Below are positions 1 through 49,200 of a stretch of DNA of 64,000 nt, piece after piece. Made by a program: the position numbers and the translations under genes. The stretch lies in NCBI GenBank assembly GCA_000004985.1, contig GG738917.1, one strand, 5' to 3'. Under the pieces are notes generated by a model. It was not told where the DNA came from. It saw only the letters and a list, made by a program, of their open reading frames with translations, and did no database searches. The stretch comes from Naegleria gruberi. Its lineage: Eukaryota. The number at the start of each line of letters is the position of its first letter. Position 1 is the first letter of the stretch.

Positions 1-948
1 GCAAGCTCACCTAATATATTTAAACCTCAAAGTTTTGACGACAACAATTTTGGAAAGAAAATTCAAGATGTTACATTTAAGTGTTGGGGTTTGCAAAATG
101 TTGAGAACAAAAAAATTCACACCAGAATTTACAATTGCGATTCAGAGCAAATAATCAGCTACATTTGCTATGGTGAAGGCACATTAATAGATGGGACTAA
201 ACCTGTGTTTGTAAAGATTCACAGCGGTCATCCAATGGAAACCTATAATGCAGAATGTGTTACAAGTTTTGCATGTGACAGAATTCAAACAGATTGCTTG
301 GATGCTAAAAATACTATCAAAATCTACAAGTATTTCATTGAGAAAAGAAGTGTCCCTTATGAAATTTTTGGGGATATTTCCACACCATACAAGGGTTACA
401 TTACTGATGTAACAATATCAGAATTGTTAACTACTGTTGAAAATTCCATATTTTCACAAACAAAACACCTTGACGATAATGTCAAATTATTGACTTTGCT
501 CTATGTTATGGATGGGTGCATTAGGGGTATTAATTTTATGACTAATCATCTGAAATTGTTACACAATGATATTGCCTTTAGGAATGTAATGGTAAGGGAA
601 AATACAAACAAATCTGGCATTTCCTCTCTGATAGATCAATATTGTAATTTAACTCTTACAGACTTGGAGTTTAAGAACGACATGAAATGTTTAGCCAAGG
701 TCTTTATTGAATTTGTATCTTTTCTTTTTGGGAAAAATTCAAATGATTTGCAATTACTTTCAAATATGGAACCCCATTTTGATGGAGACTTTAAAATAGT
801 ACACTTGTGGATAGTACAAACTATTGAATCGTTACAAAGTAACTGCAAAAAGAGCTTTCTTTCAGAATTTCAGGATATTAACTTCCTAAAGGTCGTACAA
901 CCTTTGGATGAGATGGTGATTGCTTTATTGCTTCGTAGCTCTAATTAA
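1..948 (+). CDS. Protein kinase-like domain protein, 5'-partial (likely pseudokinase). Frame 1 is open from the window edge; the ORF track start at 91 is a TTG, not a real start.
   Basis: No stop in frame 1 from nt 1 to the TAA at 946-948. Kinase-fold landmarks are degenerate: VKIHSG (beta3 Lys-like), LKLLHNDIAFRNVMV in place of HRDxxxxN, LTDLEF in place of DFG. Confidence 0.45.
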   Translation, partial: ASSPNIFKPQSFDDNNFGKKIQDVTFKCWGLQNVENKKIHTRIYNCDSEQIISYICYGEGTLIDGTKPVFVKIHSGHPMETYNAECVTSFACDRIQTDCLDAKNTIKIYKYFIEKRSVPYEIFGDISTPYKGYITDVTISELLTTVENSIFSQTKHLDDNVKLLTLLYVMDGCIRGINFMTNHLKLLHNDIAFRNVMVRENTNKSGISSLIDQYCNLTLTDLEFKNDMKCLAKVFIEFVSFLFGKNSNDLQLLSNMEPHFDGDFKIVHLWIVQTIESLQSNCKKSFLSEFQDINFLKVVQPLDEMVIALLLRSSN

Positions 949-1554: not shown

Positions 1555-1832
1555 ACAATATTGGATTAAGAGAAGGAACTAACTAAGGATATAAAGAAAG
1601 AAGTCTATATGTAGTATCAATTATGATTACCGTGNNNNNNNNNNNNNNNNNNNNNNNNNNNNNNNNNNNNNNNNNNNNNNNNNNAGCAAAATATTGGATT
1701 AAGAAAGCCAAAGAAGGAAATAACTAAGGATAAAGAAAGAAGTCCATATGTCCTTATCAGTCCTTTTCTGTACACTTGTGAGATGCAGAGTGGAAAGATT
1801 ACATGTAGTATCAATTATGATTACCGTGTGTG
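1555..1832. repeat. Tandem repeat (~80-140 bp units) flanking and probably collapsed into assembly gap 1
   Basis: Unit 'a(c/a)aatattggattaaga..aactaaggata(t)aaagaaagaagtc(t/c)atatgt' occurs at 1555-1634 and again at 1685-1750. The 26-mer 'atgtagtatcaattatgattaccgtg' occurs at 1609-1634 and 1805-1830. Confidence 0.6.
1635..1684. other. Assembly gap (50 N)
   Basis: Run of N. Confidence 0.99.
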
Positions 1833-6934: not shown

Positions 6935-9175
6935 ATGTCTTTAAACGTGGACTCACAAACAGCATCACGTGTTTCGCAATTGTATGAAGATTTAAAAACC
7001 ATTCCTACTTTATCAGGTGGTTTAATTCTTCCATCGTCTTGTATTGAAATTAATTGTACAGTCTCCGATCATCAGAATGATAAGAATATTAGTCTTTCTA
7101 AACAATATCAATTAGTAAATGATCATCAAGTTGTTGGATCTCCATATCCATCAATTACTCCTGCTGATATTCATTTAGTTTCTACTTCTCCAAGTGGAAA
7201 GAGAAGGGCTGTTTTTAAATGTATTGCTTCTGATGGTAAACCAAATGCAAATACAGCAGCTTTAGATTATCAAATTGAAATTTATTCTAATCAAGTTTTG
7301 CAATTGAGAATTTTGGTGAAGGATATTCATGGAAAGGTATTTACTGATGAAACTTTTGGAAGAGTTTCTTGGTCTTCATGTGAAAACAAGTTACTCTACG
7401 TTGCTGAAATGAAACAAGAACTTGTAAAGCCATATTGGGAAAAATATAGTAGAACTAACGACAAGCTACCTGAAAATGATAATCCATATCAATATAAGTA
7501 TGATTATGAAGCTAAAGAGGATTGGGGAGAGCAAATTTTATTGAAAACTCCACATATTTATGAATTGGATATTTTGGTAAAGAAGGTAACTCATATTGAC
7601 TTGATTCCTGCTACTGACAGTGCTGGTTCTCCACACTATCTTCCAGGATCAACTAATTTTGTTTATACTGCTTTTGAAAGACCTGTCAGAAAGTTAGGTA
7701 TTAGATTTTGTGTTCAAAGAGATGCCAAATTATTTTACTGTGACAGAATTTCTGTAAAACAAATTGCCTCAGAATATAGAGGACCAAGAAGACCAGTCTT
7801 TTCTCCTTGTGGAACAAAGTTGGCCTTTTTAGCTATTGAAAATAGTGTAAATTATCACAATTCCACTTCCAAGTTGGTAGTGGTAAATTGGACAACTGAA
7901 GGAGCTAAGGACTCTCAAGTTATTGTAGATATTGTAGATGAAGTTAAATGTAATGATGAAATCGAGGCAATGAACACCTTCCCAGGATTGTATAATATTG
8001 ATTTGCCTCTTTCATGTTGGAGCTCTGATTCCAGATATATTGTTATGAATTCCACTTGGAGAAGTGTCCAATCTATTGTTGTAATTGATACTCAAAAGAC
8101 ATCCAACAATGTTAGAAGACTCTTCAACAGTAACACTTATGAATCCTATGTGCTACTTTCTCATGAACCACAATCAAAGAAAGTACTCTACTACAAGACA
8201 ACTCCAACTATGCCATATCAAATTTATGTTGGTAAATTGGATTATGATTCATTAGAAGTATCAAATATTACATTGATAGAAGATGCTCTCTCACTCATCA
8301 ATACAGAGCTCAATGATAGTGGTATTAAGGAAAAACTTGAATCAATTTCTTGGAAGGTATTGCATATTCCAATAGAAAAGGGATCCAAGGTTTACATGGA
8401 CTGTATCTTGTATATTCCAAAAGGTCCAAAGTCATTCGTAAATGGTTCTGGTAGTGATAAGCACAGCCTTTTATTAATCCCTCACGGTGGTCCGCATGGC
8501 TCTTGCTCAACCATCTTTGCTGCAAGATTTATTTATTTTGCTCTTTGTGGTTATGCTGTTTTGCTTTTGAATTATAGAGGTAGTGTTGGATTTTCTCAAA
8601 GTTTTGCTGGATGTCTTCCTGGAAATATTGGTGATATGGATGTTAAAGATTGCTACAATAGTTATAGATATATTTTGGATGAGAATGTTATTCCAGTTGA
8701 TGAGAATAGTGTATCTGTGTACGGAGGATCTCATGGTGGTTTCCTTTCAGGACATTTAGTTGGCCAATATCCATCTCAATTTAAAGCTGGCATTTTACTT
8801 AATCCTGTTATCAATCTTGCAACAATTTTCAGTGAATCTGATATCCCAGATTGGTGTTATAATGAATCTTTAGGAAATGATTACTATGATGAAGCTTGTG
8901 TCACAAAAGAAATGCTTACTCAAATGTATGATCGTTCTCCAATTGCACATGTATCAAATGTTACTGCAGCAGTTTTATTACTTGTTGGTGAAGTGGACAG
9001 AAGAGTTCCAAAAGAACAACCAAGAGAATTCTATCATTCTCTCAGATTATTAGGAAAATGTAAAGAAGCACGCATGCTTGTTTATCCTGAGAATGATCAC
9101 CCTATTGCTAAACCAAAGGATGATTTTGATTCGATGGTCAGCTCTGCTCTTTTCTTGTATAAACATTCTAATTAA
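6935..9175 (+). CDS. Acylamino-acid-releasing enzyme / acylaminoacyl-peptidase (S9C prolyl-oligopeptidase family)
   Basis: 746-aa single ORF. N-terminal beta-propeller-like region, then a C-terminal alpha/beta hydrolase. Ser nucleophile in GGSHGGFL, Asp in VGEVDRRVP, His in ENDHPI. Confidence 0.85.
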   Translation: MSLNVDSQTASRVSQLYEDLKTIPTLSGGLILPSSCIEINCTVSDHQNDKNISLSKQYQLVNDHQVVGSPYPSITPADIHLVSTSPSGKRRAVFKCIASDGKPNANTAALDYQIEIYSNQVLQLRILVKDIHGKVFTDETFGRVSWSSCENKLLYVAEMKQELVKPYWEKYSRTNDKLPENDNPYQYKYDYEAKEDWGEQILLKTPHIYELDILVKKVTHIDLIPATDSAGSPHYLPGSTNFVYTAFERPVRKLGIRFCVQRDAKLFYCDRISVKQIASEYRGPRRPVFSPCGTKLAFLAIENSVNYHNSTSKLVVVNWTTEGAKDSQVIVDIVDEVKCNDEIEAMNTFPGLYNIDLPLSCWSSDSRYIVMNSTWRSVQSIVVIDTQKTSNNVRRLFNSNTYESYVLLSHEPQSKKVLYYKTTPTMPYQIYVGKLDYDSLEVSNITLIEDALSLINTELNDSGIKEKLESISWKVLHIPIEKGSKVYMDCILYIPKGPKSFVNGSGSDKHSLLLIPHGGPHGSCSTIFAARFIYFALCGYAVLLLNYRGSVGFSQSFAGCLPGNIGDMDVKDCYNSYRYILDENVIPVDENSVSVYGGSHGGFLSGHLVGQYPSQFKAGILLNPVINLATIFSESDIPDWCYNESLGNDYYDEACVTKEMLTQMYDRSPIAHVSNVTAAVLLLVGEVDRRVPKEQPREFYHSLRLLGKCKEARMLVYPENDHPIAKPKDDFDSMVSSALFLYKHSN

Positions 9176-9215: not shown

Positions 9216-10040
9216 TTACAGCTTTGAGTATTTGCTTGCATTATTAAATAGATCCCCCAAATGCTTTTTTCTATCTTGCAGTTTCTTATTCAAACTCTTC
9301 AAAAACTCATTCACTTGATCGAACAATTTATTCCACAATTCCACATTCTTGGATATTTTGGAAATAAACTTCGTTTCTTTTCTTCTGATTATTATTCCTT
9401 TTGAATATTTAGATTTCTTAAGCAATATCAAGCAAATTAATAAATGTTCTATTATTTCTTTTAGTTCCATTAAATTTTCTTGTTTTATGTATGTTTCGAT
9501 ATGTTGGGAGAAATTGGATTTTAATATCTCAAATAATCTTTGATTTTCTGACTTATCCAAAAACAAATATCCTCCCAAGTTGACTTGTTTCGTTTCGAAA
9601 TGAAGCTCCAAGAATGTAGATGCTGGTTGATTTATCATTTTTGAAAGTAAATTGATATTATCTGATTTTAGATAATTCATTCCAACTGTGAATGGGAATT
9701 CATCATCCAATTCAAAATTATTAGACATTTTCCCACCCCCTTCCAAAAACAGAATATTAATATTATCAAAACTAATTCTACTTTCTTTCAATTGTTGATT
9801 TATGTATTTCTCCAATATCTTTTCATTACTAAAATTCATATAAATAAATAAATGCTTAAAACTATCATTTCTTCCGATACTATTCACATCTAAAGCTGTA
9901 GGTTCGGAATTGTATCCAATAACATATTCCAACCTTGGTTCGTAATGAGAAATTAATTGACAAATTCTTGTTTGATTCCTCGCAAATTCCAATCCAACCA
10001 CATGTGGTTGTATGATTATAAATTTGGAATTTGGGAACAT
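9216..10040 (-). CDS. Hypothetical protein (274 aa)
   Basis: ATG-initiated minus ORF of coding-like composition. No domain recognised. Confidence 0.45.
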   Translation of the reverse strand: MFPNSKFIIIQPHVVGLEFARNQTRICQLISHYEPRLEYVIGYNSEPTALDVNSIGRNDSFKHLFIYMNFSNEKILEKYINQQLKESRISFDNINILFLEGGGKMSNNFELDDEFPFTVGMNYLKSDNINLLSKMINQPASTFLELHFETKQVNLGGYLFLDKSENQRLFEILKSNFSQHIETYIKQENLMELKEIIEHLLICLILLKKSKYSKGIIIRRKETKFISKISKNVELWNKLFDQVNEFLKSLNKKLQDRKKHLGDLFNNASKYSKL

Positions 10041-10238: not shown

Positions 10239-12023
10239 ATGAGAGCAGTTGTGAGGTTATGCCCTCATCATACTTATCCGACCAATAATAATAATAATAT
10301 TAATAATTCATTGAAGACCGGAAGGGAAACATCAGAGGTTCCCTCACCAAACTATTATTATGAAGCAACGGATTTGGAACATTTTACAGTGTATGAAAAT
10401 AATGTTAGGGAAAATGGAAAAACCTTCGAATGTAAACATATTTATGATAGCAGTGCAACACAATTTGATATTTTTGCTAATGAAGTAGTTCCGTTGATTG
10501 AGAAATGCTTTCAGGCTCAGGATTGTGCTGTTCTTTATTTCGGAAGTGATTTTGCTGGAAAACGATTTTCACTAGAAGGATTACCTGAATATCCAGGATT
10601 TTTCTATAGAACTATTGAGCTTTTATTTGACACAATAGGTAGGATTAATAATCTATTTCTGTTAACTTATCATTTAACCAGCTGGTGAGGATCCTTCAAA
10701 CAAATGTAGACTATTTTACTCTTCCTTCACTATTGAGAAGGAAACGATATTCGACAACTTGCCTAGTGATTCCAGTTCTCAAATAAAATTGAGAGATGAT
10801 AAAAAGAAAGGAATAATAGCAGAGGGTGGAACCTTAATAGAACTGTACGATATTCAACAAGCTCTTCAAGTTTATTATGAATCAACGTAAGTGGATTTTA
10901 GTTTCAAGTTACCAAATTTCTTAGATCAAAATTTTATAAATCCCTCTCCATGGGTCAGAATAAGCATTTAGTTATAAATATCAGGATTGATATTAGCAAT
11001 GCTTGCAAATCTAATTTTACAAAAGGAGAATACGGCATTTTAAGCATGGTTTCAGTTGGGAGTCCTACAATTAAACCTCAATCTTCAGTGGAAAAGAACC
11101 AAGAAATGGAAGTAGCTAATTTTTGGGTTAACCACTTAGGTAGTTGCATGAATTCATTACACAATTCTGTGAATCCCTCAATTCCATTTCACAAATCAAA
11201 ATTTACTCTTCTTCTTAGAGATTTTCTAATGAGAAACAAGGACAGCACTTCATTGTTCAATCTTAGCCCTCTTCATGAAAGTTACAAGTTTGTTGTTCAA
11301 ACTTTAACAATATGCAACAGAATATGTAAGACAACGCCAGCTAGTGTTGAAACGAAAAAGACAATAACCAAGAGCTCTGCTAAAACAAGTTCAGCCACAG
11401 AAAGGAAAACCACTAATTCAGATCTAGAAAAGAAAACTCAAGAAGTTGACGCCTTAACAAGAGAAAACAGAGAACTTTCTGATAAGATGAAGGCAATAGA
11501 GGACCAATTAAGGAAGATCCAAGAAAAACAAGAAAAGCAAACGATTCAAATTAATGCTCTATCGCCAACAAAACCAAAAGACGATGATGGATTACGGGTT
11601 TCAAAAAAGATGGCCAGACCTTCTTCTTCCAAATCGATACTGAATACGAGTGCTAGCAGCGAACTAGACAGATACAGAGAGGTAATGGAAGGAACATTAA
11701 CAAAGTTAAAAAACCAAATTAAATCATTGGAGATTGAGAACTCTGAGGTAAAGAAAGAAATGACTAAACGTGAGAATACATACAAGAAGAAAATCTCAGA
11801 GCTTGTAAATGATGTCAAAAGAGATAGTTATCAAAAGCAAATTCAAGAATTACAAACTAGAGTTGAATCACTAACAAAAACTGTACACGAGCTGAAAGCA
11901 CAAAAGAAAAACTTAACAGAAGGAGAAAAAATATACAGAACTCAGTTTGAAAAATTATCAAAAGAAAACCAAGAACTAAAACAAAAACTAGGAATAGTCT
12001 CTCATTCAATTGCTTCTAGCTGA
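10239..12023 (+). CDS. Kinesin-like protein with a degenerate (probably catalytically inactive) N-terminal motor domain plus coiled-coil stalk; join(10239..10638,10682..10886,10925..12023)
   Basis: Motor-domain landmarks are aligned but mutated. The P-loop GQTGSGKT becomes GSDFAGKR. The 'YLEIYNE..DLL' motif becomes SFTIEKETIFDNL. Switch I NxxSSRSH becomes NACKSNF. Switch II DLAGSE becomes NHLGSC. Conserved HIPYRDSKLTRLLQDSLGG becomes HKSKFTLLLRDFLMRN. Two short introns (43 nt at 10639-10681, GTAGGA..CCAG; 38 nt at 10887-10924, GTAAGT..CTTAG) join three ORF-track fragments in frame. The C-terminal ~300 aa is heptad-rich. Confidence 0.7.
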
Positions 12024-12285
12024 ATGAGGAAGAATATGAAGTCCACAGCCTAGATGATGATAGTGAATTTATGAACGAGCCTAGTGAGCTACCTCCTGAA
12101 AAATCTGATCATGAAAGAAAGTTGGAAAGAGAAGTAATTTTACTGAAGGAGGCTCTGCAGTTTGCCCTCTCTCAAAAACAATCAAATCCAAACGCTTCAC
12201 AACAGGGATCTGGATCAGTCAATCCTTTCAGGATTTCTAATGTTCAACCTCCTTTCTTGAAAAAAAAATAATTTAATAATTAAAA

Positions 12286-15200
12286 ATGATTAACGACAAC
12301 AACCAGGAACCTCCATTAACACCTTCTCAAACGCAACATAGAAGAACACAATCGGAATTCATTCAAACTTCTCAATCATCTCCACCAGACAATATAATTA
12401 ATCCATCTCCAATTTCTACTCCGATTCATTCTTCATCAACCATTGAATCCATAGAATCCGACAATAATTTCGTAACGCCAACAACTCTTATTAACAACCA
12501 AGAATCAAGTCAAAAGTCAACAACCCATCACGAAAGAAAATTTAAATCAAAACATTTTTCATTATTCGAATTAAATGGAAAGGAAGATAATAGTCACATC
12601 TACACACCTTCTTCATTGATATTTTATACTCCATCATCAAGAAAGAAATCACTTGTTGTTTCGAATAATAACAATCCAAATAATGATATTGATAATAATT
12701 TACTTTTAACACCCCGAGCTACAACAACTTCGACCGAAATGAGCTTGTCACCAACACCCAAAATGAGAACAAGCTCACTTTTTGTAAAATCACCAAATAC
12801 CAAAGAGAAATCACCTCATCAGCAAACATTGTCATTGGAAGAGTTTCCATTGCCAGATTTTTCAAGTTTGAGAAAATTTAATCATATTACTTTTGATCAA
12901 TTTGAGATAAATCAAACAAATCAACAACAAACTAAACTAGAGAATGATACAGCGGGAGTAATTGAAGAAAGTGAACTTTTGATAGAGGATGGAAAGCCTT
13001 CAAGTGTGAGGAATGAGTTTTTTCAAAGCCCTTTGCCAAGCGTAAACGAACTATTAACTCAAAATGTAGAGAAGAAGGAAAATACTGTAAATATTGGTCC
13101 TTATTCGATTTATACAGACACCGAGTATCCATTAAAATCTAATTCTAAAACCATTGAAATGGTTTTCGGTAATATTACTAAGAATTTACCTGAGAATGAA
13201 AGTGGTATTACTGATAAATACTTTTATGATGGAATTAATACCATAACAAATGAGAAAGTGAATGTAATAAGTCAATTAGTTAGTGCAGAGTTTGTAGAAA
13301 CATACAGAGAAAGATCGAAAAAGTTACTTTTAATAGATAATGTAACTGGAATAATCAGATTTTTGGACGTTGCTGAAATCCAATTGAACAAAAATAATAT
13401 TGAGTCTATCGATTTCAATACTGGAAACATTTCATCAGCTGGCTCAATATTCTACATTTTCGTAGAGCCTTGTTTATTAATGTACAAAATTATTCAAAAG
13501 ACTAAAATAGAGGAAAAGAAATTTTCTTACCCAATTTTATTAGAATGGTTGAGCCAATTATCTGATGGATTAGCAAATATTCATGAGCAACTTGAGACTG
13601 TGCATGGAAATATTGACGTGAACTCTATATTTTTCTCCAAACTTGAAGAAAGTATGAAAATAGGAAACATGCTACTTATTACACCACAAATTCTTGCAAG
13701 TGCTGATCCAATGAAATCTCCAAGTATTGACAAACCAAGTGAGAGAATGTTTGAAGCCACTTCAAATAAGCCAATATATCACTCATTTACACCTCTAGAC
13801 TTGGGAGGAGACAGGTATGGAGGTGTTTGTAGGTATGATTTTAAAACTGAAGTGTGGTTATTTGGCATCTTGATGATTACAATCATCACTATGAAAAATA
13901 TGAATGTTATCACGCATAGCTTCTTAGACAATGACCAGTCTTTTGTTTCTTCTATATTCCAGTTGATAAGTAAGCAATATAATGATAGATTTAGTGCACT
14001 TATTTGGAGATGTTGTCACTATGACCCAAGTTGCAGACCTAACATGAGAGAATTATGTCAACAACTTGCTCTTTTAAAGAAATATAGAAGTATTTCTGGA
14101 TCCACAACAACCAGTTCAACTTTCAATACCTCATTTTACGAAAATGATGTTAATCAATATCAGAAAAGATTAGACGATATTCGTGTAAACATGGAATTGG
14201 GAAGTATTTTGAGCGATTTATATGAATGTGAGGATGGAGCAAGTGAAAAACAATCTGGTAACAGATTACCAACAAGAAATAGTAACAGCTACGACATTTT
14301 ACCACTATCAAGTATGGATGGCCCAGCTGTTCTTCCCTCTCTTATTTCAATAGGTAGAACAATTATGAGATACGTTAATAAGCACTACAAAATCAAAGAC
14401 AAGAAAAAGAAGAAACTAAAATTAGCAACTATGAAAACAAAACTAATGAAAATTGCACATATACAAGAAACAGAAGTTGATAACAGAAGATCTAGTAAAA
14501 AAACCTTGGAGGAAGAGTTGAAATTGAGAAACCACACCAGAGTCTTTGAACATCAAGAAGAGGTAGATCTCAAAATACTCCAAGCTAAAATTGCCAATCA
14601 ATACTCAATAATTTCAGTAATTGGGAGTGGTAGTCAGGGAACTGTCATCAAAGCATTCGATAGCCAAAATAATAGATTTGTAGCAATCAAACGTATTAGA
14701 ATGAAGGATAATAATGATACCATGTTGGCCTCCAAAGAAATTTCAGCCATGTTCTCACTCAATGACAATGATAACATTTGTAAAATTTACAACTGGTTTA
14801 TTTATTGTGAGAATAGAGAAGATAAGAAAATAATTACCTCAGAAAATCTTTCAGATAGTGAGGATGAGCATGATTTTGATGAGGAAGATGACGAGGAGGA
14901 TGAGTACGATTTCAAGGATTATGCTAACGAGACTTGGTACATTGGAATTGTAATGGAATATTGTTCTGAAGGAGATTTGAGAAAAGCCATGAGATACTGT
15001 AGAGAATGCAATACTTACTTTAAAAATTCAACAGTTAAAAAGTGGCTCAATGAGTTGATTTGTGCAACAGATTATATTCATAGAAGAAATTTAATGCACA
15101 GGGATATTTCTACAAAGAATATTTTCCTTCATAGCAACACTGAATTACAACCATCTAGCACATTAATTGGAACACCTCCATCATATTTTGACGCTTGTCA

Positions 15201-16421
15201 TGTAAAAATTGGAGATATGGGACTTTCCATAAAGTTAGAAGAACTCAATAGAAATAACTCGGCTTGGGGAACCAGACGATGGATGGCACCTGTAAGTAAT
15301 TATCAATTAATATTTCTAAAATCTCAATATAGGAGCAACGGTTGGGTAAAAGATATGACTCTACTGTGGATATTTGGAGTTTAGGATGTATTGCATTAGA
15401 AATGGTTTTACAATATTCGTATTCGATGGTTGTAAAGTCAAGTAATTCAATGGACAATATGGATCATGATATGAGACATGTGGACTATTATCAAGAAATT
15501 AAGAATAATCCTAACTTTTTGAATGATATACTAAGACCACTGGAGTCATACTATGATGACAATATAATAGAATTCATTAAAAAGTGCCTTGTTATTGAAC
15601 CATGGAAACGAGCCAAGGCTCAACAATTATATGGCCTACTCAATCAAGATATTAGATCAGTGGAGAACGCTGAGGTTCACTATGACCAGAGCCTTGAAGA
15701 GTTTCATCCATCTCCCTTCTCTGTGGAAAAGAAAGGATTGGAACAACTCCATGCAGCAACACCCACCGCTGCCAATATCCCTAACAAATTAATTGAAAAT
15801 GCAAGTCTAAGTAACTTGGCGCTCTTACAAAACGAAAGGGATAAAGTGAATGCATTGATAGAGAAAGTAGAAGAATCACAAAGTATTCGTAAAATATCCA
15901 ATCCAGTATTTATAGAGCTTGGAGCTGATAACAAAAAATATACTAAACCAGAACCAAAAGCAACCCACAAACTAACATCCACCATGACAATCGAAAGTAG
16001 AAATGTTCTCACAAGCCATGGATTAAGCACATTTTTCAAAGAAATTGAAGTTGAAGAAAATCATGAAAAAGAAAGCCAATCACTGAAAGACCACAATGAA
16101 TCCTCATCAAGCAATAATGAAATGCTTCCAGAAGAATTTTCCACACAAGTTAAAAGAGGTCATGAAAAGTCACTCCACAAACTCTTGCAAAAATCAATAT
16201 CTGATTGGACAACAAACGATGTAGGAATTTGGCTCATTTCAATTGATTTTAGCAAATTTGTTGAGAATTTTCAATCTCAGAATATTACCGGAAGAGCTTT
16301 ATTGTTAATAAGAGAAGAAGATATGAAAGATGTGGGTGTAGTTAAATTGGGAGACAAACTTTTATTGTGGAACATGATTCAGAATTTAAGACAACTTCAC
16401 GATAGAAAGCAAAAGAAATAA
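12286..16421 (+). CDS. Large Ser/Thr protein kinase: N-terminal low-complexity region, pseudokinase-like domain, active kinase domain, C-terminal SAM domain; join(12286..15291,15333..16421)
   Basis: Active kinase motifs: GSGSQGTV, VAIK, HRDISTKN, DMG, then GTRRWMAP|EQRLGKRYDSTVDIWSLGC restored by a 41-nt intron 15292-15332 (GTAAGT..TATAG). The upstream domain has a degenerate C-lobe (HGNIDVNSIFF, DLGG, KTEVWLFGILM, CHYDPSCRPNMREL). The C-terminal DWTTNDVGIWL..LGDKLLLWNMIQNL is SAM-like. Confidence 0.75.
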
Positions 16422-16646: not shown

Positions 16647-19600
16647 ATGCACATTAAATCTGTAACGATACAAGGCTTTAAATCATATCGTGATCAAACT
16701 TTCACTTCACAAGAATTTTCAGCCTCACAGAATATAATCGTTGGTAGAAACGGTAGTGGTAAATCCAACTTTTTCAGTGCCATCTCGTTCGTACTGAGTG
16801 AAAAGTTTAGTAAACTCAGAAGCGAAGAAAGACAAGCCTTTTTGCATGAAGGTACAGGTAGAGGTGTCATTTCTGCCTTTGTTGAAATTGTTTTTGACAA
16901 TTCTGACAACAGATTACCAACAGATAGCAAAGAAGTGGCTATTAGAAGAACCATTGGTTTAAAGAAAGACGAATATAGAATTGATGGCAAAGCTGTGACA
17001 CAACGTGAAGTATTTAATTTATTGGAATCTGCTGGTCTCAGTTCAAGTAATCCATACTATATTGTAGAACAAGGTAAAGTCTCTAGTTTGACAACTATGA
17101 AGGATGCGGAAAGACTTGAATTGTTAAAAGAAATTGCGGGAACTAAAGTTTACGATCAAAAGAGAGCAGAATCATTAACAATCATGAAAGATACTGAACA
17201 AAAGAAACAAAAAATTGATGAAGTTATTGAATATGTACAAGGTCGTCTTGATGAACTAGAGCAAGAAAAAGAAGAACTTAAAGAATTCCAAAAGCTTGAC
17301 AAGGATAGAAGATGTGTAGAATATGCCATTTTCGAACAAGAACTAAGCGAAGCAACTAAAAATTTAGAAGAAATAGAAAAAGCTAGAGAAAGTCAACATA
17401 CCCTCGCTAATCAATTGCATATGGACAAGATGCATTTACAACAAAAACTAAAGGACTACGAAAGGGATATTAAAACTGCTAAACTTCAAAAGGATACTAA
17501 GCAAAAAGAAAAAGAAATTTTAGAAAGTGAAAGACAAGACTTAATCAGACAAAGAACTAAGGTTGACCTAGAATTAAAAGACTACCAACAATTACATAAA
17601 GATGATGAAAGCACTCGTAATGACTTTGAAGAAGAACTTAGGGAAATAGATGAAAAGATCAATGATTTGAACTCACAATTGAATGATGAACTGATTCCAC
17701 AATTAGATTTATTGGTTAGAGAAGAAAAGGAAATTTCTGATAAATTACAACAAAGTGAAAGAAGAATGAACGAACTTTTGAGTATCCAAGGTAGAAAGAA
17801 TAAGTTTGATAATGTAAAAGACAGAAACAAATGGTTAACTGAAGAAATTAACAAATTAGAAAAAGTTAACGCAAGTTATGATGAACAAATTACAACAAGA
17901 ACTTCTGATGTTAAAAAACTTAAAGAAGCACTTTCTACCTATGAAAGAACTATTCAAGAAAAGGAAAAATCATTCTCTGACAATAGAAAGAAAATTGAAC
18001 AATACCAAAGAAATTATGTAAACTTAAAGGATCGTAGAGATAATCTTACCAATCAAAAGAAAGAATTATGGAAGGAACAAAATGATGTTGAAAAGGAAAC
18101 ACAAAGACTTCAAGACGAACTTGTCAGAGCTGAAAGAAAGTTAGATATGACTTTCCCAAAGTCTATTTCATCTGGTGTTCGTTCTGTAAATACTATCAAA
18201 AAGGAAAGAAATCTCTCTGGAGTTTATGGTACAGTTATTGAATTAATTAGATGTGATCCAAAATACCATAGAGCTGTTGAAGTTACTGCTGGAAATTCTC
18301 TCTACCATGTTGTTGTAGAAAATGAAAAAGTTTCTGGTGATATCATCAAAATTATGAATGAAAGTAATGCTCCTGGTAGAGTTACCTTTATCCCACTCAA
18401 CAGATTAAAAGCTTTGGACAGTGATGACAGTATTGGTACATCTGAATTCATTCCTCTTTGGAAGAAGATCGATGCTGATTCAAAGTTTAATGAAGTTGTC
18501 AAGAGTTTGTTTGGAAAGACTTTCTGTACCAAAACATTGGAAGATGGCGCTCAATTTGCTAAAGATCACAATGTAAACTGTGTAACTCTTGCTGGTGATC
18601 AAGCTAATAGAAAGGGTACTCTTACTGGTGGTTATATTGAACAAAAACAATCCAGATTAGATTGTTGGAAACAAATCAAGGATTTGAGAAAGACATATTC
18701 TGAAAGCTTTGATAAGTCCAAGAAGATTAAGGCTTCAATTGCCACTCTCGAAGAACAACTCAACAGTTGTATTACTGATTTACACAAGGTTGAATCTGAA
18801 GTTCACAACTCTAAGAATACCATTCAATACGAACAACAAGAAATTCACAACCTTACTGTAAGAAGAGATCTTATCAAGGACAATCTTCGTTCAAACGAAG
18901 AATTGTTGGAGAAGGTCAAATCTATCCTCTCTTCCAACAAGGAAACCATCGAATCATACACCAAGGAAAAGGATTTACCACTAGATGCTACACTCAACTC
19001 TAGAGAAAAGCAAGAACTTGAAAAGTTATCAAAGTCTGTTACTGAACTGACAACCAAGTTACAAGGTGTCTCCAAGAACAGATTAGAAAAAGAAACCAAG
19101 AAAGAAAGTCTTAGAATTCAATTGACTACAAACTATATTCCAAGAAAGTCCGAACTTCAAGTCTTGATAGAAACTCTCCCAACAGATAATTCTATTTCAT
19201 CCTCTCATCAAACTTTAATGCAACTCCAAACTGAGAAGCAAGTTACAGAAGAAAGAATTAAAGATACAACTGAATCAGTTAAGAGACTTGATCAAGAAAT
19301 TGATGAGTTGGGCGAAACCATCAGAAATAAGCAAGAACAATTGGAAACTGAAAAGTCTGAAGAAACAAAGAAATTACAAACTCTTCAAGAAAAGGCCAGT
19401 TCTCTTGAAAAACTTCTCAACAAGAAGAAGATTTGGTCTCAAAAGAAGGAAGAATGTATTAAACAAATCAAAGAATTGGGAACCCTTCCATCAGACTTTA
19501 GAAAATATCTTGAAACTGATCAAAAGTTATTGCTCAAGAAATTGCACAATACCAACGAAAAGCTGAAGAAATTCGGTCATGTCAACAAGAAGGCTCTTGA

Positions 19601-20339
19601 TCAATACGAACAATTCAGTAATCAAAAGGAAGAATTCCTGGAAAAGAAGAGTGAACTTGATAGCAGTGCTAAAGCAATTAATGAACTTATCCAAGTTTTA
19701 GATAAGAGAAAGGATGAAGCAATTGTAAGAACATTTAAGCAGGTACAAAAAAACTTCCAAGAAATTTTCCAAAATCTTGTTCCAGGTGGTCATGCTTCTC
19801 TGTCTATGAAATATAGAAATGGTGAAGATGAAGAAGAGGAAGAAGAAGAAGATGAAGAAGCAAAGGAAGTTGAACAATATGCTGGTGTTTCCATCAAGGT
19901 CTCTTTCATGTCAAGTGGTGACTCTGAAGAAGATCAATCATACCATCTCATGCAACAGCTTTCAGGTGGTCAAAAGTCACTTGTAGCTCTCTGTCTTATT
20001 TTTGCTATCCAACGTTGTGACCCTGCACCATTCTATTTATTCGACGAAATTGATGCTGCTCTCGATCCTGCCTACAGAACATCCGTTGCCAATATGATTG
20101 ATACTCTTTCAACGAAGGAAAAGATTCAATTTATTACAGCAACGTTCAAACCAGAAGTTTTAGAAACAGCTGAAAACTTTTATGGTATTTCATTCAAGAA
20201 TAAGGTTTCTTCAATCAAATTGATTTCAAAGAACGAAGCTCTCAAAGTTTTGCAAGAAGAAGAAAGACTAGGTGGCAATCCTCAAGAAATTGAAAGACCA
20301 TCGTCACCTGCAAAAGTTGATGAAATGGAAGATGAATAA
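16647..20339 (+). CDS. SMC3: Structural maintenance of chromosomes protein 3 (cohesin SMC3)
   Basis: 1230-aa single ORF. N-terminal Walker A (IVGRNGSGKSNFF); VEIVFDNSDNRLP; long coiled coils flanking a hinge; C-terminal ABC signature/Walker B/D-loop (QQLSGGQKSLVALCLIFAIQRCDPAPFYLFDEIDAALD); FITATFKPEVLE. Many segments match SMC3 rather than SMC1/2/4. Confidence 0.9.
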   Translation: MHIKSVTIQGFKSYRDQTFTSQEFSASQNIIVGRNGSGKSNFFSAISFVLSEKFSKLRSEERQAFLHEGTGRGVISAFVEIVFDNSDNRLPTDSKEVAIRRTIGLKKDEYRIDGKAVTQREVFNLLESAGLSSSNPYYIVEQGKVSSLTTMKDAERLELLKEIAGTKVYDQKRAESLTIMKDTEQKKQKIDEVIEYVQGRLDELEQEKEELKEFQKLDKDRRCVEYAIFEQELSEATKNLEEIEKARESQHTLANQLHMDKMHLQQKLKDYERDIKTAKLQKDTKQKEKEILESERQDLIRQRTKVDLELKDYQQLHKDDESTRNDFEEELREIDEKINDLNSQLNDELIPQLDLLVREEKEISDKLQQSERRMNELLSIQGRKNKFDNVKDRNKWLTEEINKLEKVNASYDEQITTRTSDVKKLKEALSTYERTIQEKEKSFSDNRKKIEQYQRNYVNLKDRRDNLTNQKKELWKEQNDVEKETQRLQDELVRAERKLDMTFPKSISSGVRSVNTIKKERNLSGVYGTVIELIRCDPKYHRAVEVTAGNSLYHVVVENEKVSGDIIKIMNESNAPGRVTFIPLNRLKALDSDDSIGTSEFIPLWKKIDADSKFNEVVKSLFGKTFCTKTLEDGAQFAKDHNVNCVTLAGDQANRKGTLTGGYIEQKQSRLDCWKQIKDLRKTYSESFDKSKKIKASIATLEEQLNSCITDLHKVESEVHNSKNTIQYEQQEIHNLTVRRDLIKDNLRSNEELLEKVKSILSSNKETIESYTKEKDLPLDATLNSREKQELEKLSKSVTELTTKLQGVSKNRLEKETKKESLRIQLTTNYIPRKSELQVLIETLPTDNSISSSHQTLMQLQTEKQVTEERIKDTTESVKRLDQEIDELGETIRNKQEQLETEKSEETKKLQTLQEKASSLEKLLNKKKIWSQKKEECIKQIKELGTLPSDFRKYLETDQKLLLKKLHNTNEKLKKFGHVNKKALDQYEQFSNQKEEFLEKKSELDSSAKAINELIQVLDKRKDEAIVRTFKQVQKNFQEIFQNLVPGGHASLSMKYRNGEDEEEEEEEDEEAKEVEQYAGVSIKVSFMSSGDSEEDQSYHLMQQLSGGQKSLVALCLIFAIQRCDPAPFYLFDEIDAALDPAYRTSVANMIDTLSTKEKIQFITATFKPEVLETAENFYGISFKNKVSSIKLISKNEALKVLQEEERLGGNPQEIERPSSPAKVDEMEDE

Positions 20340-21053: not shown

Positions 21054-21103
21054 NNNNNNNNNNNNNNNNNNNNNNNNNNNNNNNNNNNNNNNNNNNNNNN
21101 NNN
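21054..21103. other. Assembly gap (50 N)
   Basis: Run of N. Confidence 0.99.
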
Positions 21104-46219: not shown

Positions 46220-49200
46220 ATGGAACAAGATACATTGCTGGAGGAGGAAATAGATTTTGATCAACAACAAGAAGAACAGCAGCATTATCATGGAGAGGAT
46301 ATCCACTCGGATGAAAATATTTTGAATGAATCTACAAGTAATGATAATCAAGAGGAAATAGTCAATAGTGATGAACAAGGACAAGACGAGGCTTTGTGTA
46401 GAATTTGCAAACAGCCTGCAGCTGATGATGACCCTCTTTTCCATCCGTGCAAGGTATGTTTTAAATATATTATATATTAGTATTGATATTGTAGTGTTCC
46501 GGAAGTATTAAATACATTCACGAATCATGTTTAAATGAATGGATGAAACACTCTAACAAGGGAAAATATTGTGAAATATGTAAACATCAATTCAAGTTTG
46601 AAAAAGTGTATACTACAGATGCACCTATTAAATTGTCACCCTTGCAATTTATTTTAGGCTTACTTTCGGTTGTATTTAGTTATTTAAAATCAATTAGTAG
46701 AATTCTTCTTGTAGTATTCATTTGGATAGTTTTAGTACCTTTTATTACCTATCAGTTTTATAGGATTGTGAATATAACCTCATGGAGACAAATACTGTCA
46801 ATAGTTGAGTTTGAAACTCTATTCGAAGATTTTTCTCTCTTATTATTCATCAGGGATTGTATGTTAGGAGGAACAATTTGTTTATTTGTACTACTTTTAG
46901 ATTTGATTACTGCTGGAGTTTTAGAATTCATCAAGTCTAATTTGGAGTTGTTAGAAAATTATGTTAATCCTCAACAACAAAATCAAGTGGCAAATAATCA
47001 ACCACAACCTGTTAATGCTCAAGTAGCTAATAATGCTAATAATAATAACAATGAAGTTTTAACATTGAGGGATTTGCTGAACCAAGAGCAAGAAATGCAA
47101 GAAGAGGATGAAAATAATGGGAATGAAAACAATGAAGATCAGGAAGAAGAGGAAGAAGAGGAAGAAGAAGAGAATATTGAGAATGAAAATAATGATAATC
47201 AGCCAAACATTATTCAACCTCCTCAACCAATTGTTAATAATCAACCACCAAATAATCCTCCACAACAACAACAACAACCTAGAGAGGAATTGGATTTGGA
47301 AGAAATGATTGGTATCAAGGGAAAGATTTCTCATTTGATTGAAACTGTTGCTTTGGTACTTTTCGTCAATTCTCAACACATATTGTTGTTACTCTTCCTT
47401 CCTCTACAAATTGGAAGGTTTTTATGCACAACCATTGTTCAAGAATTGGATATTTCGTCAGTAATTTATCAAGTCTTGGCTGAACATAATTTATTGAAGA
47501 ACACAACTCAAATTATTTCCAATGTTACCCAAACCATGAATGAGGTATTTAATCAAACTATTACCACTAATGGAACCATGGCCAATGAACCTAAGGAATC
47601 TGTGGAATTGACTAGTATTATGGTGTTTGCCGAAAAGATAGCACATATTTTGACTGGTTATGCATTTTTGATAGGAATGATTTATACCTATGTAGTCATC
47701 AATTATTTGCTACATTATGGTATTTCTAAGAAGTACTTCCCAATAAGTGGATTGGCTAAGAAATTGGTTTATTATACCAAGTATGTGTTGCTCCTTGTCA
47801 AGATTGCTGCAATTCTTGCCACCAACTTTATTTTAGTTCCTTTCTTAGTAGGAATGTTACTTGTCTTTTCAACCATTGAATTCTTTAAAAGAAATGAGAA
47901 ATCAGTTCTTCCTCAAGACTTTACAACAACATCCAATTCTACAAGTTTCTCTATTGCAGACCAAGCTTCAATGATTTATAATAGTACTGCTCCAATAGTC
48001 CAGGAATTTACTGAGAAAAATGCTACTGAATTAGTAAGAGGTTTAATTATTGGTACTCATGCTTATTTCCAATCAGTGTCTGTGGAGTGGGTTCTTTCAA
48101 GAATGGTTTACATCATGAGTGTATCATTTATTTATTTCGTATTTGGTATCGTTGTAGTAGTAATTGCTAGTAGCTTTATTCAAATGCTTAGATCCTTCCT
48201 CTCAAAGAGAGTACTTTGGTTTTTGAGAGATCCAGACGACCAAAATTTCCACTACTTGAAGGAGCTAGTGACTCTTGGAGTTTTCACACATATGCGTAGA
48301 ATATTCTTCTCCTTTGTGTTTTTATCAATTCTTGTACTTGCATTAGTTCGTACTCCTTTGAAGCTTGCTAGATTTATTCTTCAAGATTATGATATTTTCC
48401 CTCTTAGATTGAGCTCTAACTTGAGTGAGTCTACCACAATAATTGAGCTTACAGTGGATGCTTCACTTCCAATAATTACTTTCAATTATATGCAACAAAG
48501 ATGGCTCAGNNNNNNNNNNNNNNNNNNNNNNNNNNNNNNNNNNNNNNNNNNNNNNNNNNGCTGAATTGAAAAATCATCATTTCTATACTTACATTGTTGG
48601 ATTTTACTTGATCAGTGGTGCTATTTATTTGGTCAATTATGTTTATACTCACAGATCACTTACTGAAGCTATCAAGTGGACTTTGGTTGTATTGAAATCA
48701 TTTATTATGGGAGTATTTTCTATTGTGTTGATCCCATTACTCATAGGTGGTGCTGTACATATGTCTGTAGTGGTACCAACCACTTTATTTATTAGCAAGC
48801 TTGAATCTGAGGATCTAGATGATAGTTTGAGTGGCTCTCAACCTGTTCTTATGTTGGCAGAGGTATGGTCAACTGGGTTGTTATTCACAATTGTAGCTTA
48901 CAAAGTGGTTAAGTTCTTGCCAGGTACGGAAGAAATATACACAGAAATTTCCCGCATCAAGACAAATGGATTCAGAAATGTTGAATTTATTAGACCTTTG
49001 AATCGAGTGCTTTTACCATTTGTGTATAATTTGGTTCTTTTCTTGACTTTACCATTTATTGTTTCCAAGTTAGTTGTTCCATTCTTTGTTACTCCATATG
49101 TTCAATATCAATTGTTTGTGTTGAGCTATCCTGCTCTTGTTTTTTGGATTGTTTCAAAACATATTTATTTTGTGTTAGCCAAATTATACCACAAACTTCA

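What the first reader, a model, noticed from the sequence alone, without database searches (positions are those of the whole stretch)
12286..16421. Tandem pseudokinase-kinase gene with C-terminal SAM domain, next to the dead kinesin and a further pseudokinase-like ORF at the window start
One 1364-aa product carries a degenerate kinase-like domain (catalytic HRD replaced by HGN, DFG replaced by DLG, no Gly-loop) upstream of an intact Ser/Thr kinase domain (GSGSQGTV, VAIK, HRD, DMG, WMAPE). A SAM domain follows at the extreme C-terminus. This is a JAK/GCN2-like domain logic in a different architecture. The kinase subdomain VIII-IX sequence is only continuous after removing a 41-nt intron. Together with the 5'-partial kinase-like ORF (1-948) and the pseudokinesin, this window is unusually rich in catalytically dead paralogs of signalling or motor enzymes.
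Basis: partly seen in the sequence, partly recalled or inferred. Interest (0 to 1): 0.5.

Follow-up and report, generated by a model that had tools for sequence, protein, structure and literature searches.

The report
Naegleria pseudokinase–kinase–SAM signalling gene
This is a real two-exon gene of a Naegleria-type amoeba that encodes a dead kinase-like domain, then a probably active protein kinase, then a SAM interaction domain; the combination is restricted to this lineage and uncharacterised, but it is built from ordinary parts.

Summary
Window 12286-15291 plus 15333-16421 (+), joined across a 41-nt GT..AG intron, encodes a 1364-aa protein. Pfam finds a kinase domain (res 773-1101, E 2.6e-46) and a C-terminal SAM domain (1293-1355, E ~1e-13). 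The upstream block (res ~313-592) is a diverged kinase fold: it passes Pfam's threshold and profile-profile comparison gives 99.3-99.4%.

This upstream domain lacks the Gly-loop, the β3 Lys, the HRD Asp (HGN) and the DFG Asp. The DFG equivalent is N461-M-L in KIGNMLL. The "DLG" at 505-507 sits at the APE position.

Full-length orthologues exist in N. fowleri and N. lovaniensis. A compact 941-aa orthologue lies in another assembly. The dead domain is under the same purifying selection as the live one (dN/dS 0.072 vs 0.071).

The active domain belongs to no named family; PKR, MST1/2 and NEK score about equally. Its catalytic loop is unusual (HRDISTKN, Lys at +4 rather than +2).

The most likely function is a kinase regulated by its pseudokinase and assembled through SAM. 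This is inferred, not shown. Adjacency to the dead kinesin is not conserved. Verdict: a new variant of the known tandem pseudokinase-kinase kind, of modest interest.

The parts
12286..16421 (+). Whole gene: two exons, 1364-aa product, stop codon at 16419-16421
   Evidence: ORFs; splicing and translation; full-length orthologues P0001 and P0002 at 56-58% identity and 94-99% coverage
12286..15291 (+). Exon 1 (codons 1-1002)
15292..15332 (+). 41-nt spliceosomal intron, GTAAGTAA...ATATAG. Retaining it shifts the frame and truncates the kinase after subdomain VIII.
   Evidence: Read directly. Identical in the 99.5%-identical contig L004. Absent from the N. fowleri and N. lovaniensis orthologues, where the flanking peptide is contiguous. 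Two introns of 43 and 38 nt in the neighbouring kinesin-like gene are of the same size class.
15333..16421 (+). Exon 2 (codons 1003-1364 plus stop)
12286..13074 (+). N-terminal low-complexity region (res 1-263) with a few invariant short motifs (HRRTQSEF 18-25, KHFSLFE, TPSSLIFYTP, LEEFPLPDFS, NHITFDQ, SPLPSV). No Pfam domain.
   Evidence: Pfam finds nothing. Alignment A1. 33-40% identity with many gaps. dN/dS 0.56. Absent from the compact orthologue in L001.
13075..14106 (+). Conserved pseudokinase block (res 264-607). The kinase-fold core is res ~313-592 (13222-14061).
   Evidence: Pfam PK_Tyr_Ser-Thr 29.5 bits, above cut-off 23.1. hhalign 99.4% and 99.3% over β2 to αI. AF2 C-lobe pLDDT 85-98 with only protein kinases as Foldseek hits. 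The L001 orthologue hits Pkinase at 41.7 bits over profile positions 27-196, so the N-lobe is detected there. dN/dS 0.072.
13600..13623 (+). Degenerate catalytic loop VHGNIDVN (res 439-446). HRD becomes HGN, so the catalytic Asp is Asn. The catalytic-loop Asn446 is kept.
   Evidence: Alignments to active kinases. Invariant in four orthologues.
13657..13677 (+). KIGNMLL (res 458-464), the true DFG position, reading N461-M-L
   Evidence: GNM is invariant in four orthologues.
13789..13806 (+). TPLDLG (res 502-507).
   Evidence: Not conserved in the L001 orthologue, which reads RFETG.
14107..14556 (+). Conserved inter-domain linker (res 608-757), including the polybasic stretch KDKKKKKLK (704-712; 14395-14421)
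   Evidence: 68-69% identity. dN/dS 0.091. Partly conserved in L001 (GGDGPAV..SLI, KKRRKK).
14602..15629 (+). Probably active protein kinase domain (res 773-1101; the intron lies inside it). Key elements: Gly-loop 14623-14646, VAIK 14680-14691, acidic β4-β5 insert 14809-14931, HRDISTKN 15097-15120, DMG 15214-15222, WMAPE 15280-15335.
   Evidence: Pfam Pkinase E 2.6e-46. PDB hits. Motif positions. dN/dS 0.071.
16203..16391 (+). C-terminal SAM domain (res 1293-1355)
   Evidence: Pfam SAM_2 at 52.2 bits and SAM_1 at 49.9 bits. Nearest solved SAM domains are CNK, neurabin, SHANK, ZAK, SARM1 and DGKδ. 86-88% identity, dN/dS 0.013.

Best explanation
What it is. A single protein-coding gene of a Naegleria-group amoeba (Heterolobosea). 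It encodes a large cytoplasmic signalling kinase with five parts in order:
- a disordered N-terminal region carrying a few conserved short motifs;
- a catalytically dead kinase-fold domain (no Gly-loop, β3 Lys replaced by Ser, HRD replaced by HGN, DFG replaced by NML), predicted to bind neither ATP nor metal;
- a conserved 150-residue linker with a polybasic patch;
- a probably active, unclassified eukaryotic protein kinase domain;
- a C-terminal SAM domain.

Shown here: the gene structure, the domain identities, the loss of the catalytic residues, and strong purifying selection on every folded part.

Inferred mechanism:
- The dead domain acts in cis or in trans as an allosteric regulator or docking platform for the adjacent live kinase, as JH2 does for JH1 in JAKs.
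- The SAM domain drives homo- or hetero-oligomerisation. This brings kinase domains together for trans-autophosphorylation or recruits SAM-containing partners, as in Eph receptors, ZAK and Ste11.

Substrates and pathway are unknown.
For: One gene:
- A continuous 1032-aa ORF covers the dead domain, the linker and most of the live domain.
- The N. fowleri and N. lovaniensis orthologues are uninterrupted ORFs of 1618 and 1547 codons.
- A fourth, compact orthologue (941 aa, four 32-35-nt introns) keeps the same domain order.

The dead domain is a kinase fold:
- Pfam score above the gathering cut-off.
- hhalign 99.3-99.4%.
- The AF2 C-lobe is confident and Foldseek returns only kinases.
- Pfam Pkinase detects the N-lobe in the L001 orthologue.

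The dead domain is dead but functional:
- HGN and GNM are invariant in four orthologues.
- dN/dS is 0.072 against 0.071 for the live domain and 0.56 for the N-terminal region.

The live domain keeps the essential residues: G-x-G-x-x-G, K802, E818, D940, N945, D977, E1003, D1015 and R1095.

SAM: Pfam E ~1e-13, and it is the most conserved part. Its nearest solved relatives are oligomerising or scaffolding SAM domains.

Precedents:
- JH2-JH1 regulation in JAKs (PMC8141879).
- Kinase, linker, then SAM as an oligomerisation module in Eph receptors (PMC7586955).
Against: - No experiment or transcript data were available. Splicing, kinase activity, oligomerisation and any cross-talk between the two domains are all untested.
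- The N-lobe of the dead domain could not be modelled with confidence (pLDDT <50). Its alignment relies on the L001 orthologue.
- The AF2 and Foldseek result is partly circular, because kinase sequences were placed in the input alignment.
- The live domain lacks the catalytic-loop Lys at HRD+2 and has DMG in place of DFG. The L001 orthologue has SPQ for APE. Activity is therefore likely but not certain.
- The two kinase-like domains are no more similar to each other than to unrelated kinases. There is thus no sign of the duplication history that underlies JAK-type regulation.
Confidence: 0.6

Rival explanations
1. The dead domain does not regulate the neighbouring kinase. It is an independent scaffold or substrate-docking module (as in Tribbles or KSR-type scaffolds) that merely shares a polypeptide with the kinase and SAM domains.
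For: There is no sequence sign of co-origin of the two domains (4.2 bits). The C-lobe surface and the linker are highly conserved, which fits conserved external partners equally well.
Against: Domain order and linker are conserved across four orthologues, which argues for a functional unit. Known tandem cases (JAK; GCN2, my own knowledge) act on the adjacent kinase.
Confidence: 0.2
2. The C-terminal 'active' kinase is also catalytically impaired, so the whole protein is a non-enzymatic scaffold.
For: The catalytic-loop Lys at HRD+2 is Ser/Thr in all orthologues, whereas 114 of 118 nearest relatives have Lys. DFG is DMG or DLG. APE is SPQ in the L001 orthologue.
Against: All residues normally used to call a pseudokinase (β3 Lys, HRD Asp, DFG Asp) are present and invariant, together with the Gly-loop, αC Glu and catalytic Asn. 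A conserved Lys at HRD+4 could replace the +2 Lys, as the +4 Arg does in tyrosine kinases and as in TESK1 HRDLTSKN (my own knowledge, not tested here). dN/dS is 0.071.
Confidence: 0.1
3. The protein is a highly diverged eIF2α-kinase (PEK/GCN2) relative. On this view the dead-plus-live pair is homologous to the GCN2 pseudokinase-kinase pair, and the protein is a stress-activated eIF2α kinase that lost RWD and HisRS-like domains and gained SAM.
For: With a four-orthologue profile, PKR is the best solved match (99.8 bits), in one stretch spanning the β4-β5 insert. The Naegleria proteins carry an acidic insert at the position typical of eIF2α kinases. GCN2 also has a pseudokinase N-terminal to its kinase (my own knowledge).
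Against: The margin over MST1/2 (92.7 bits) and NEK7 (87.6 bits) is small, and with the single sequence MST1/2 is best. Named database hits are mostly NEK. The insert is absent from the L001 orthologue. The alignment to PKR ends at the start of the αG region (PKR 'FFTDLRD'), and that stretch is variable among orthologues and largely deleted in L001. No RWD or HisRS-like domain is found. The dead domain gave no GCN2 hit.
Confidence: 0.07
4. The N-terminal kinase-like domain keeps an unconventional enzymatic activity, such as atypical phosphotransfer or AMPylation as in SelO-type pseudokinases.
For: It is under strong purifying selection. The catalytic-loop Asn446 and His440 are kept.
Against: All four nucleotide, metal and catalytic elements are missing at once: the Gly-loop, the β3 Lys, the HRD Asp and the DFG Asp. 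No compensating conserved Lys or Asp was seen.
Confidence: 0.03

Closest known systems
JAK family (JH2 pseudokinase followed by JH1 kinase)
   Same: A dead kinase-fold domain lies immediately N-terminal to a live kinase domain in one polypeptide. The dead domain is conserved and presumably regulatory (PMC8141879).
   Different: No FERM or SH2 domain is present. The live domain scores as a Ser/Thr-type Pkinase, not a tyrosine kinase (Pkinase 158.6 bits against PK_Tyr_Ser-Thr 115 bits). The two domains show no specific mutual similarity. A C-terminal SAM domain is present. The lineage is Heterolobosea, not Metazoa.
GCN2 / eIF2α kinases (PEK family, PKR)
   Same: The pseudokinase-then-kinase order matches GCN2. 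PKR is the top solved match for the family profile (99.8 bits). An acidic insert lies between β4 and β5 in the Naegleria proteins.
   Different: No RWD, HisRS-like or dsRBD domain is present. The insert is missing in the L001 orthologue. The αG region is not conserved. MST and NEK score almost as well.
NEK (NIMA-related) kinases
   Same: Most named hits to the live-domain profile are NEK11, NEK8-like or NIMA (about 100 bits, 25-30% identity). Shared sequence features are NIFL after the catalytic loop, a VK[IL]GD.G motif and PEQ. The best remote hit of the dead domain (P0006) is, by my reading of its motifs, a NEK-like kinase; no source names it.
   Different: Identity is only 25-30%. The catalytic loop lacks the Lys at +2. 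No NEK-type C-terminal coiled-coil or RCC1 domain is present. No phylogeny was done.
SAM-containing kinases (Eph receptors, ZAK/MAP3K20, Ste11)
   Same: A kinase domain is combined with a SAM domain. In Eph receptors the SAM follows the kinase at the C-terminus and serves oligomerisation (PMC7586955). The ZAK SAM is among the nearest solved SAM domains.
   Different: There is no ectodomain, transmembrane segment or leucine zipper. About 190 residues of low-conservation spacer separate kinase and SAM. An additional pseudokinase domain is present.
Plant tandem kinase proteins and other protist multi-kinase proteins
   Same: Several kinase or pseudokinase domains occur in one chain. Such proteins (P0005, P0008, P0009) were among the few remote hits of the dead domain.
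   Different: Those are TKL/RLK-type repeats of similar domains. Here the two domains are unrelated in sequence and are joined to a SAM domain.

Membership tests
Eukaryotic protein kinase superfamily - active domain (res 773-1101) | Pfam Pkinase match above the gathering score | tested here: met
   158.6 bits against a cut-off of 31.7, E 2.6e-46
Eukaryotic protein kinase superfamily - active domain (res 773-1101) | Catalytic residues present: Gly-loop, β3 Lys, αC Glu, HRD Asp, catalytic Asn, DFG Asp | tested here: met
   GSGSQG 780-785, K802, E818, D940, N945 and D977 are invariant in four orthologues. Exception: the Lys at HRD+2 is replaced by Ser/Thr, with a Lys at +4.
Pseudokinase (kinase fold lacking catalytic residues) - res ~313-592 | Recognisable protein-kinase fold | tested here: met
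   Pfam PF07714 29.5 bits against 23.1. hhalign 99.3-99.4%. The L001 orthologue scores Pkinase 41.7 bits against 31.7, covering profile positions 27-196. The AF2 C-lobe has pLDDT 85-98 and Foldseek returns kinases only. The N-lobe model itself is not confident.
Pseudokinase (kinase fold lacking catalytic residues) - res ~313-592 | Loss of at least one of β3 Lys, HRD Asp and DFG Asp | tested here: met
   All three are lost (S329, N442, N461) and there is no Gly-loop.
Pseudokinase (kinase fold lacking catalytic residues) - res ~313-592 | No nucleotide binding or phosphotransfer | not testable with these tools
   Needs biochemistry.
SAM domain | Pfam SAM_1 or SAM_2 match above the gathering score | tested here: met
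   SAM_2 52.2 bits against 20.5; SAM_1 49.9 bits against 23. Solved SAM domains are hit at E down to 9e-8.
JAK family | FERM and SH2-like domains N-terminal to JH2-JH1, with a tyrosine-kinase JH1 | tested here: not met
   No Pfam domain in res 1-313. No FERM or SH2 in the full-length scan. The live domain scores higher with Pkinase than with PK_Tyr_Ser-Thr.
GCN2 / eIF2α kinase (PEK) family | RWD and HisRS-like domains (GCN2) | tested here: not met
   None found at E<=1.
GCN2 / eIF2α kinase (PEK) family | Insert between β4 and β5 | tested here: inconclusive
   A roughly 40-residue acidic insert is present in three Naegleria proteins and absent from the L001 orthologue.
GCN2 / eIF2α kinase (PEK) family | Conserved αG eIF2α-docking surface (PKR Thr487 region) | tested here: inconclusive
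   The alignment to PKR stops at the start of this region. The stretch is variable among orthologues and mostly deleted in L001. The motif itself is recalled from memory.
GCN2 / eIF2α kinase (PEK) family | Kinase domain groups with PEK kinases rather than other families | tested here: inconclusive
   With the profile: PKR 99.8, MST1 92.7, NEK7 87.6, GCN2 77 bits. With the single sequence: MST1 98.9, PKR chimera 82.9 bits. No phylogeny was done.
NEK family | Kinase domain groups with NEKs in a kinome phylogeny | not tested
   Only ranking evidence is available. Most named profile hits are NEK11 or NEK8-like, but solved NEK7, NEK2 and NEK1 score below PKR and MST.

The most novel reading that the evidence does not exclude
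Heterolobosean amoebae may have independently evolved a JAK/GCN2-style self-regulating kinase. On this reading an unrelated dead kinase domain gates a live kinase whose catalytic loop has moved its phosphate-contacting Lys from HRD+2 to HRD+4, the tyrosine-kinase/TESK-like geometry. That could confer dual or tyrosine specificity in a lineage without classical tyrosine kinases. Activation would be triggered by SAM-driven polymerisation.
Probability: 0.12. Interest if true: 0.55.

Novelty: new variant of a known kind. Interest (0 to 1): 0.3.

Why it matters
Tandem pseudokinase-kinase proteins such as JAKs and GCN2 are the standard examples of allosteric control by dead enzymes. An independent, strongly conserved example outside animals, fungi and plants would show that this arrangement has arisen more than once. 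It would also give a small, intron-poor model for study; the 941-aa orthologue is especially compact. One orthologue is in the human pathogen N. fowleri and has no close human counterpart (at most about 30% identity), so the protein could be of interest as a parasite-specific kinase. Apart from that it is one of many lineage-specific kinases in a kinase-rich protist genome, and nothing here suggests a new biochemical principle.

Tried and rejected
1. AlphaFold2 on the dead domain with only the three Naegleria sequences failed (mean pLDDT 32.5).
   - A second run with 46 NEK-like kinases added gave a confident C-lobe only. The N-lobe and activation segment stayed below 50.
   - That result is partly circular and was used only as support.
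2. MAFFT placed the N-lobe of the dead domain in a register that would delete αC and β4 in the L001 orthologue. I rejected this in favour of the hhalign and Pfam register.
3. PDB sequence searches with the dead domain gave only marginal hits (E about 0.01).
4. A full HMMER scan of 1.84 billion representative proteins found only 7 hits at E<=1e-3 for the dead domain. No deep family exists from which to infer function.
5. Looking for the exact window proteins in the big collection found nothing, neither the SMC-like neighbour nor the spliced or unspliced kinase. No annotated record or transcript of this exact gene was obtained.
6. Literature searches found no paper on this protein (Naegleria + kinome + pseudokinase; Naegleria + kinome) or on the assembly holding L001 (accession search).
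7. The idea that ORF 12071-12271 ('MNEPS...') is an upstream exon of the kinase gene, because N. lovaniensis P0001 also starts MNEPS, was rejected.
   - There is no plausible splice donor.
   - There is no conservation in any fetched locus.
8. Functional linkage with the dead kinesin was rejected, because the adjacency is not conserved.
9. Assignment to eIF2α kinases, NEK or STE20 was considered. None is supported over the others.


Full report
**Source and setting.** The window is AT-rich eukaryotic DNA (about 32% G+C) with very short GT..AG introns. It is a scaffold with five runs of N, none of them inside the gene. The closest full-length proteins are 'hypothetical protein' entries of Naegleria lovaniensis (P0001, 1547 aa) and N. 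fowleri (P0002, 1618 aa), at 56-58% identity over 94-99% of the query. The window therefore comes from a Naegleria species of the gruberi type. A metagenome contig (L004) is 99.5% identical at the DNA level over 4040 nt.

**Observation check: gene structure.**
- The ORF listing gives a 1032-aa ORF at 12286..15384 and a 359-aa ORF at 15342..16421 in another frame.
- The sequence at 15292-15332 is GTAAGTAATT...CAATATAG, 41 nt.
- Removing it joins the frames into a 1364-aa product that reads WMAP|EQRLGKRYDSTVDIWSLGC.
- In N. fowleri and N. lovaniensis the orthologous genes are single uninterrupted ORFs. They encode the same junction peptide (TMAPEQRLGKRYD) without an intron.
- A further Naegleria contig (L006) also lacks this intron. 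It has a different one, 46 nt, at KLEE^L.
- L004 carries the identical 41 nt, so the interruption is not an assembly error.
- Two introns I placed in the neighbouring kinesin-like gene are 43 and 38 nt, the same size class.
- There is no transcript evidence. The comparative evidence for the spliced model is strong.

**Domains.**
- Pfam on the spliced protein gives Pkinase at 773-1101 (158.6 bits, E 2.6e-46) and SAM_2/SAM_1 at 1293-1355 (52.2 and 49.9 bits). Nothing else appears at E<=1.
- Scanned alone, residues 266-757 hit PK_Tyr_Ser-Thr at 29.5 bits (cut-off 23.1) over profile positions 96-258, the C-lobe.
- Profile-profile comparison of the three-species alignment with seven diverse kinases gives 99.4% probability, E 1.8e-21.
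- Adding a fourth, distant orthologue and comparing with 99 kinase domains gives 99.3%, E 1.1e-20. That alignment runs from β2 to the end of the C-lobe (protein residues 313-592).
- The distant orthologue's N-terminal half hits Pfam Pkinase at 41.7 bits (cut-off 31.7) over profile positions 27-196. That range covers β3, αC, β4, β5 and the catalytic core.
- AlphaFold2 failed with three sequences (pLDDT 32.5). With 46 NEK-like kinases added it gave a confident C-lobe (pLDDT 85-98) but an unresolved N-lobe and activation segment.
- Foldseek against the PDB returned only protein kinases, including NEK7, FAK, JAK2 and RET. This structural support is partly circular because kinases were in the input alignment.

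**Motif map of the dead domain.** Alignments to active kinases show the following.

| Canonical element | In this domain | Note |
|---|---|---|
| Gly-loop | no glycine-rich loop | |
| β3 Lys | S329 (VNVISQ) | Ala in the L001 orthologue |
| HRD | H440-G441-N442 | catalytic-loop Asn446 is kept |
| DFG | N461-M462-L463 | KIGNMLL against KIGDFGL |
| APE | P503-L504-D505 | FTPLDL against YMAPEL |

It is not conserved in the distant orthologue, which reads RFETG.
- HGN and GNM are invariant in all four orthologues.
- All elements for nucleotide, metal and catalysis are missing together. This predicts a domain that neither binds ATP nor transfers phosphate.

**The live domain.**
- Present and invariant are GSGSQG (780-785), K802, E818, H938-R-D940, N945, D977 (DMG), E1003 (APE), D1015 and R1095.
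- The catalytic loop is unusual. HRDISTKN (HRDISLKN and HRDVTPKN in orthologues) has Ser/Thr at HRD+2 and Lys at +4.
- Among the 118 catalytic loops found in the 120 nearest database hits, 114 have Lys at +2. Only one shares the S/K pattern.
- From my own knowledge, tyrosine kinases (HRDLAARN) and TESK1 (HRDLTSKN) use a basic residue at +4. I therefore regard the domain as probably active, with a small chance of altered specificity or impaired activity.
- The Naegleria proteins carry a roughly 40-residue acidic insert between β4 and β5 (842-882). It is absent from the distant orthologue.

**Family placement of the live domain is unresolved.**
- With the single sequence (inserts removed), the best solved matches are MST1/2 (98.9 bits). 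A broad field follows near 80 bits: PKR, MST3/4, PAK, NEK7 and CDKs.
- With the four-orthologue profile, PKR is first (99.8), then MST1 (92.7), NEK7 (87.6) and GCN2 (77).
- In the 5.8-billion-protein search, the named hits are mostly NEK11, NEK8-like or NIMA at about 100 bits and 25-30% identity.
- The alignment to PKR ends at the start of the αG region. That stretch is variable among orthologues and largely deleted in the distant one.
- I therefore file the domain under no named family.

**Distribution and selection.**
- A full HMMER scan of 1.84 billion representative proteins with the dead-domain profile found only seven hits at E<=1e-3. Two were real relatives: the Naegleria cluster and P0004.
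- P0004 lies on a 13-kb contig of NCBI assembly GCA_016850925.1 (L001, 38% G+C; the tools did not name the organism).
- I reconstructed that gene with four 32-35-nt introns into a 941-aa protein. It has the same order: dead kinase (HGN, GNM), linker, live kinase, SAM. It lacks the long N-terminal region and the acidic insert.
- Identity between the window and the two named Naegleria species, by region:

| Region | Identity (%) |
|---|---|
| N-terminal region | 33-40 |
| Dead domain | 70 |
| Linker | 68-69 |
| Live domain | 73 |
| Spacer | 49-57 |
| SAM | 86-88 |

- Nei-Gojobori dN/dS between N. fowleri and N. lovaniensis, by region:

| Region | dN/dS |
|---|---|
| N-terminal region | 0.56 |
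| Dead domain | 0.072 |
| Linker | 0.091 |
| Live domain | 0.071 |
| Spacer | 0.24 |
| SAM | 0.013 |

- The dead domain is thus as constrained as the live one.
- The two kinase-like domains show no specific similarity to each other (4.2 bits). A recent internal duplication is excluded.

**Mechanism (inferred).**
- The strong constraint on the dead domain and linker, and their fixed position before the live kinase, fit an allosteric or docking role. JH2 acts this way on JH1 in JAKs (PMC8141879). From my own knowledge, the GCN2 pseudokinase acts similarly on its kinase.
- The SAM domain is most similar to those of CNK, neurabin, SHANK, ZAK, SARM1, DGKδ and polyhomeotic. Many of these oligomerise.
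- In Eph receptors a C-terminal SAM after the kinase serves higher-order assembly (PMC7586955).
- The simplest model is a kinase whose activity is set by its dead domain and by SAM-mediated clustering.
- Nothing here identifies substrates or a pathway.

**Context claims.**
- The upstream gene (10239..12023, introns 10639-10681 and 10887-10924) has a full-length kinesin motor match (E 6.7e-33).
- Its nucleotide motifs are degenerate: P-loop GSDFAGKR, switch I GQNKH, switch II SVGSPT. 'Dead kinesin' is correct.
- It has an orthologue in N. lovaniensis (39% identity, with a deletion in the P-loop). There it lies about 6.5 kb downstream of the kinase gene, not next to it.
- In both N. fowleri and N. 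lovaniensis the kinase gene directly follows the S9-peptidase gene.
- ORF 1-948 only just reaches the Pkinase_fungal threshold (24.9 bits against 24.1). By my reading it keeps the Lys, the HxD Asp, the Asn and a D-L-E at the DFG position, so it is not shown to be dead.
- I see no evidence that the co-occurrence of these genes is more than coincidence.

**Verdict.**
- The protein is a lineage-restricted, uncharacterised combination of well-known modules.
- I rate it a new variant of the tandem pseudokinase-kinase kind, of modest interest (0.3).
- No paper on it was found. Database entries call the orthologues hypothetical proteins or generic Ser/Thr kinases.

Noticed in passing
window 10239-12023 (+), introns 10639-10681 and 10887-10924: A kinesin-like gene with a full motor-domain match but degenerate P-loop (GSDFAGKR), switch I (GQNKH) and switch II (SVGSPT), followed by a long coiled-coil tail. 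It has an orthologue in N. lovaniensis (L003 19154-20551, 39% identity, with a deletion in the P-loop), so this dead motor is conserved in the genus.
   Followed up: partly
window 12020-12271 (+): A 66-aa ORF (MNEPSELPPEK...) lies between the kinesin-like gene and the kinase gene and is assigned to neither. It would join the kinesin tail in frame only through an unusually short 23-nt GT..AG segment (11997-12019). It is not conserved in any fetched locus.
   Followed up: partly
window 1-948 (+): A 5'-truncated ORF with a marginal kinase-like hit (Pkinase_fungal 24.9 bits against a cut-off of 24.1; motif HNDIAFRN). By my reading it keeps a β3-type Lys (VFVKI), the HxD Asp, the catalytic Asn and a D-L-E at the DFG position. 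It may be an atypical active kinase rather than a pseudokinase.
   Followed up: partly
L006 about 948-994; L002 10001-14857; L003 8001-12644: Intron positions in this gene differ between Naegleria species. The window has a 41-nt intron after MAP^EQ. Contig L006 has a 46-nt intron at KLEE^L instead. N. fowleri and N. lovaniensis have none. This indicates recent intron gain or loss.
   Followed up: partly
L001 8990-11951 (NCBI GCA_016850925.1, JAESGV010000845.1): A compact 941-aa orthologue with four introns of only 32-35 nt. The automatic gene calls split it into five ORFs. The organism of this assembly was not identified.
   Followed up: partly
window 1635-1684, 21054-21103, 48510-48559, 58730-59826, 62101-62383: Runs of N (assembly gaps). 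The apparent 0-12% G+C region around 58.5-60 kb is such a gap flanked by very AT-rich sequence, not a biological feature.
   Followed up: yes
window 16647-20339 (+): A 1230-aa single-exon ORF immediately downstream. By eye it looks like an SMC-family ATPase (N-terminal GRNGSGKSN Walker A, C-terminal LSGGQKS signature). It is also present next to the kinase gene in contig L004. It was not checked with domain tools.
   Followed up: no
window 6935-9175 (+) compared with L002 7502-9863 (-) and L003 5510-7819 (-): The S9-peptidase (APEH-like) gene is a conserved neighbour of the kinase gene in three Naegleria species. In the window it is in the opposite orientation, and two genes (9216-10040 on the minus strand and the kinesin-like gene) are inserted between it and the kinase gene. 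This is a local rearrangement.
   Followed up: partly
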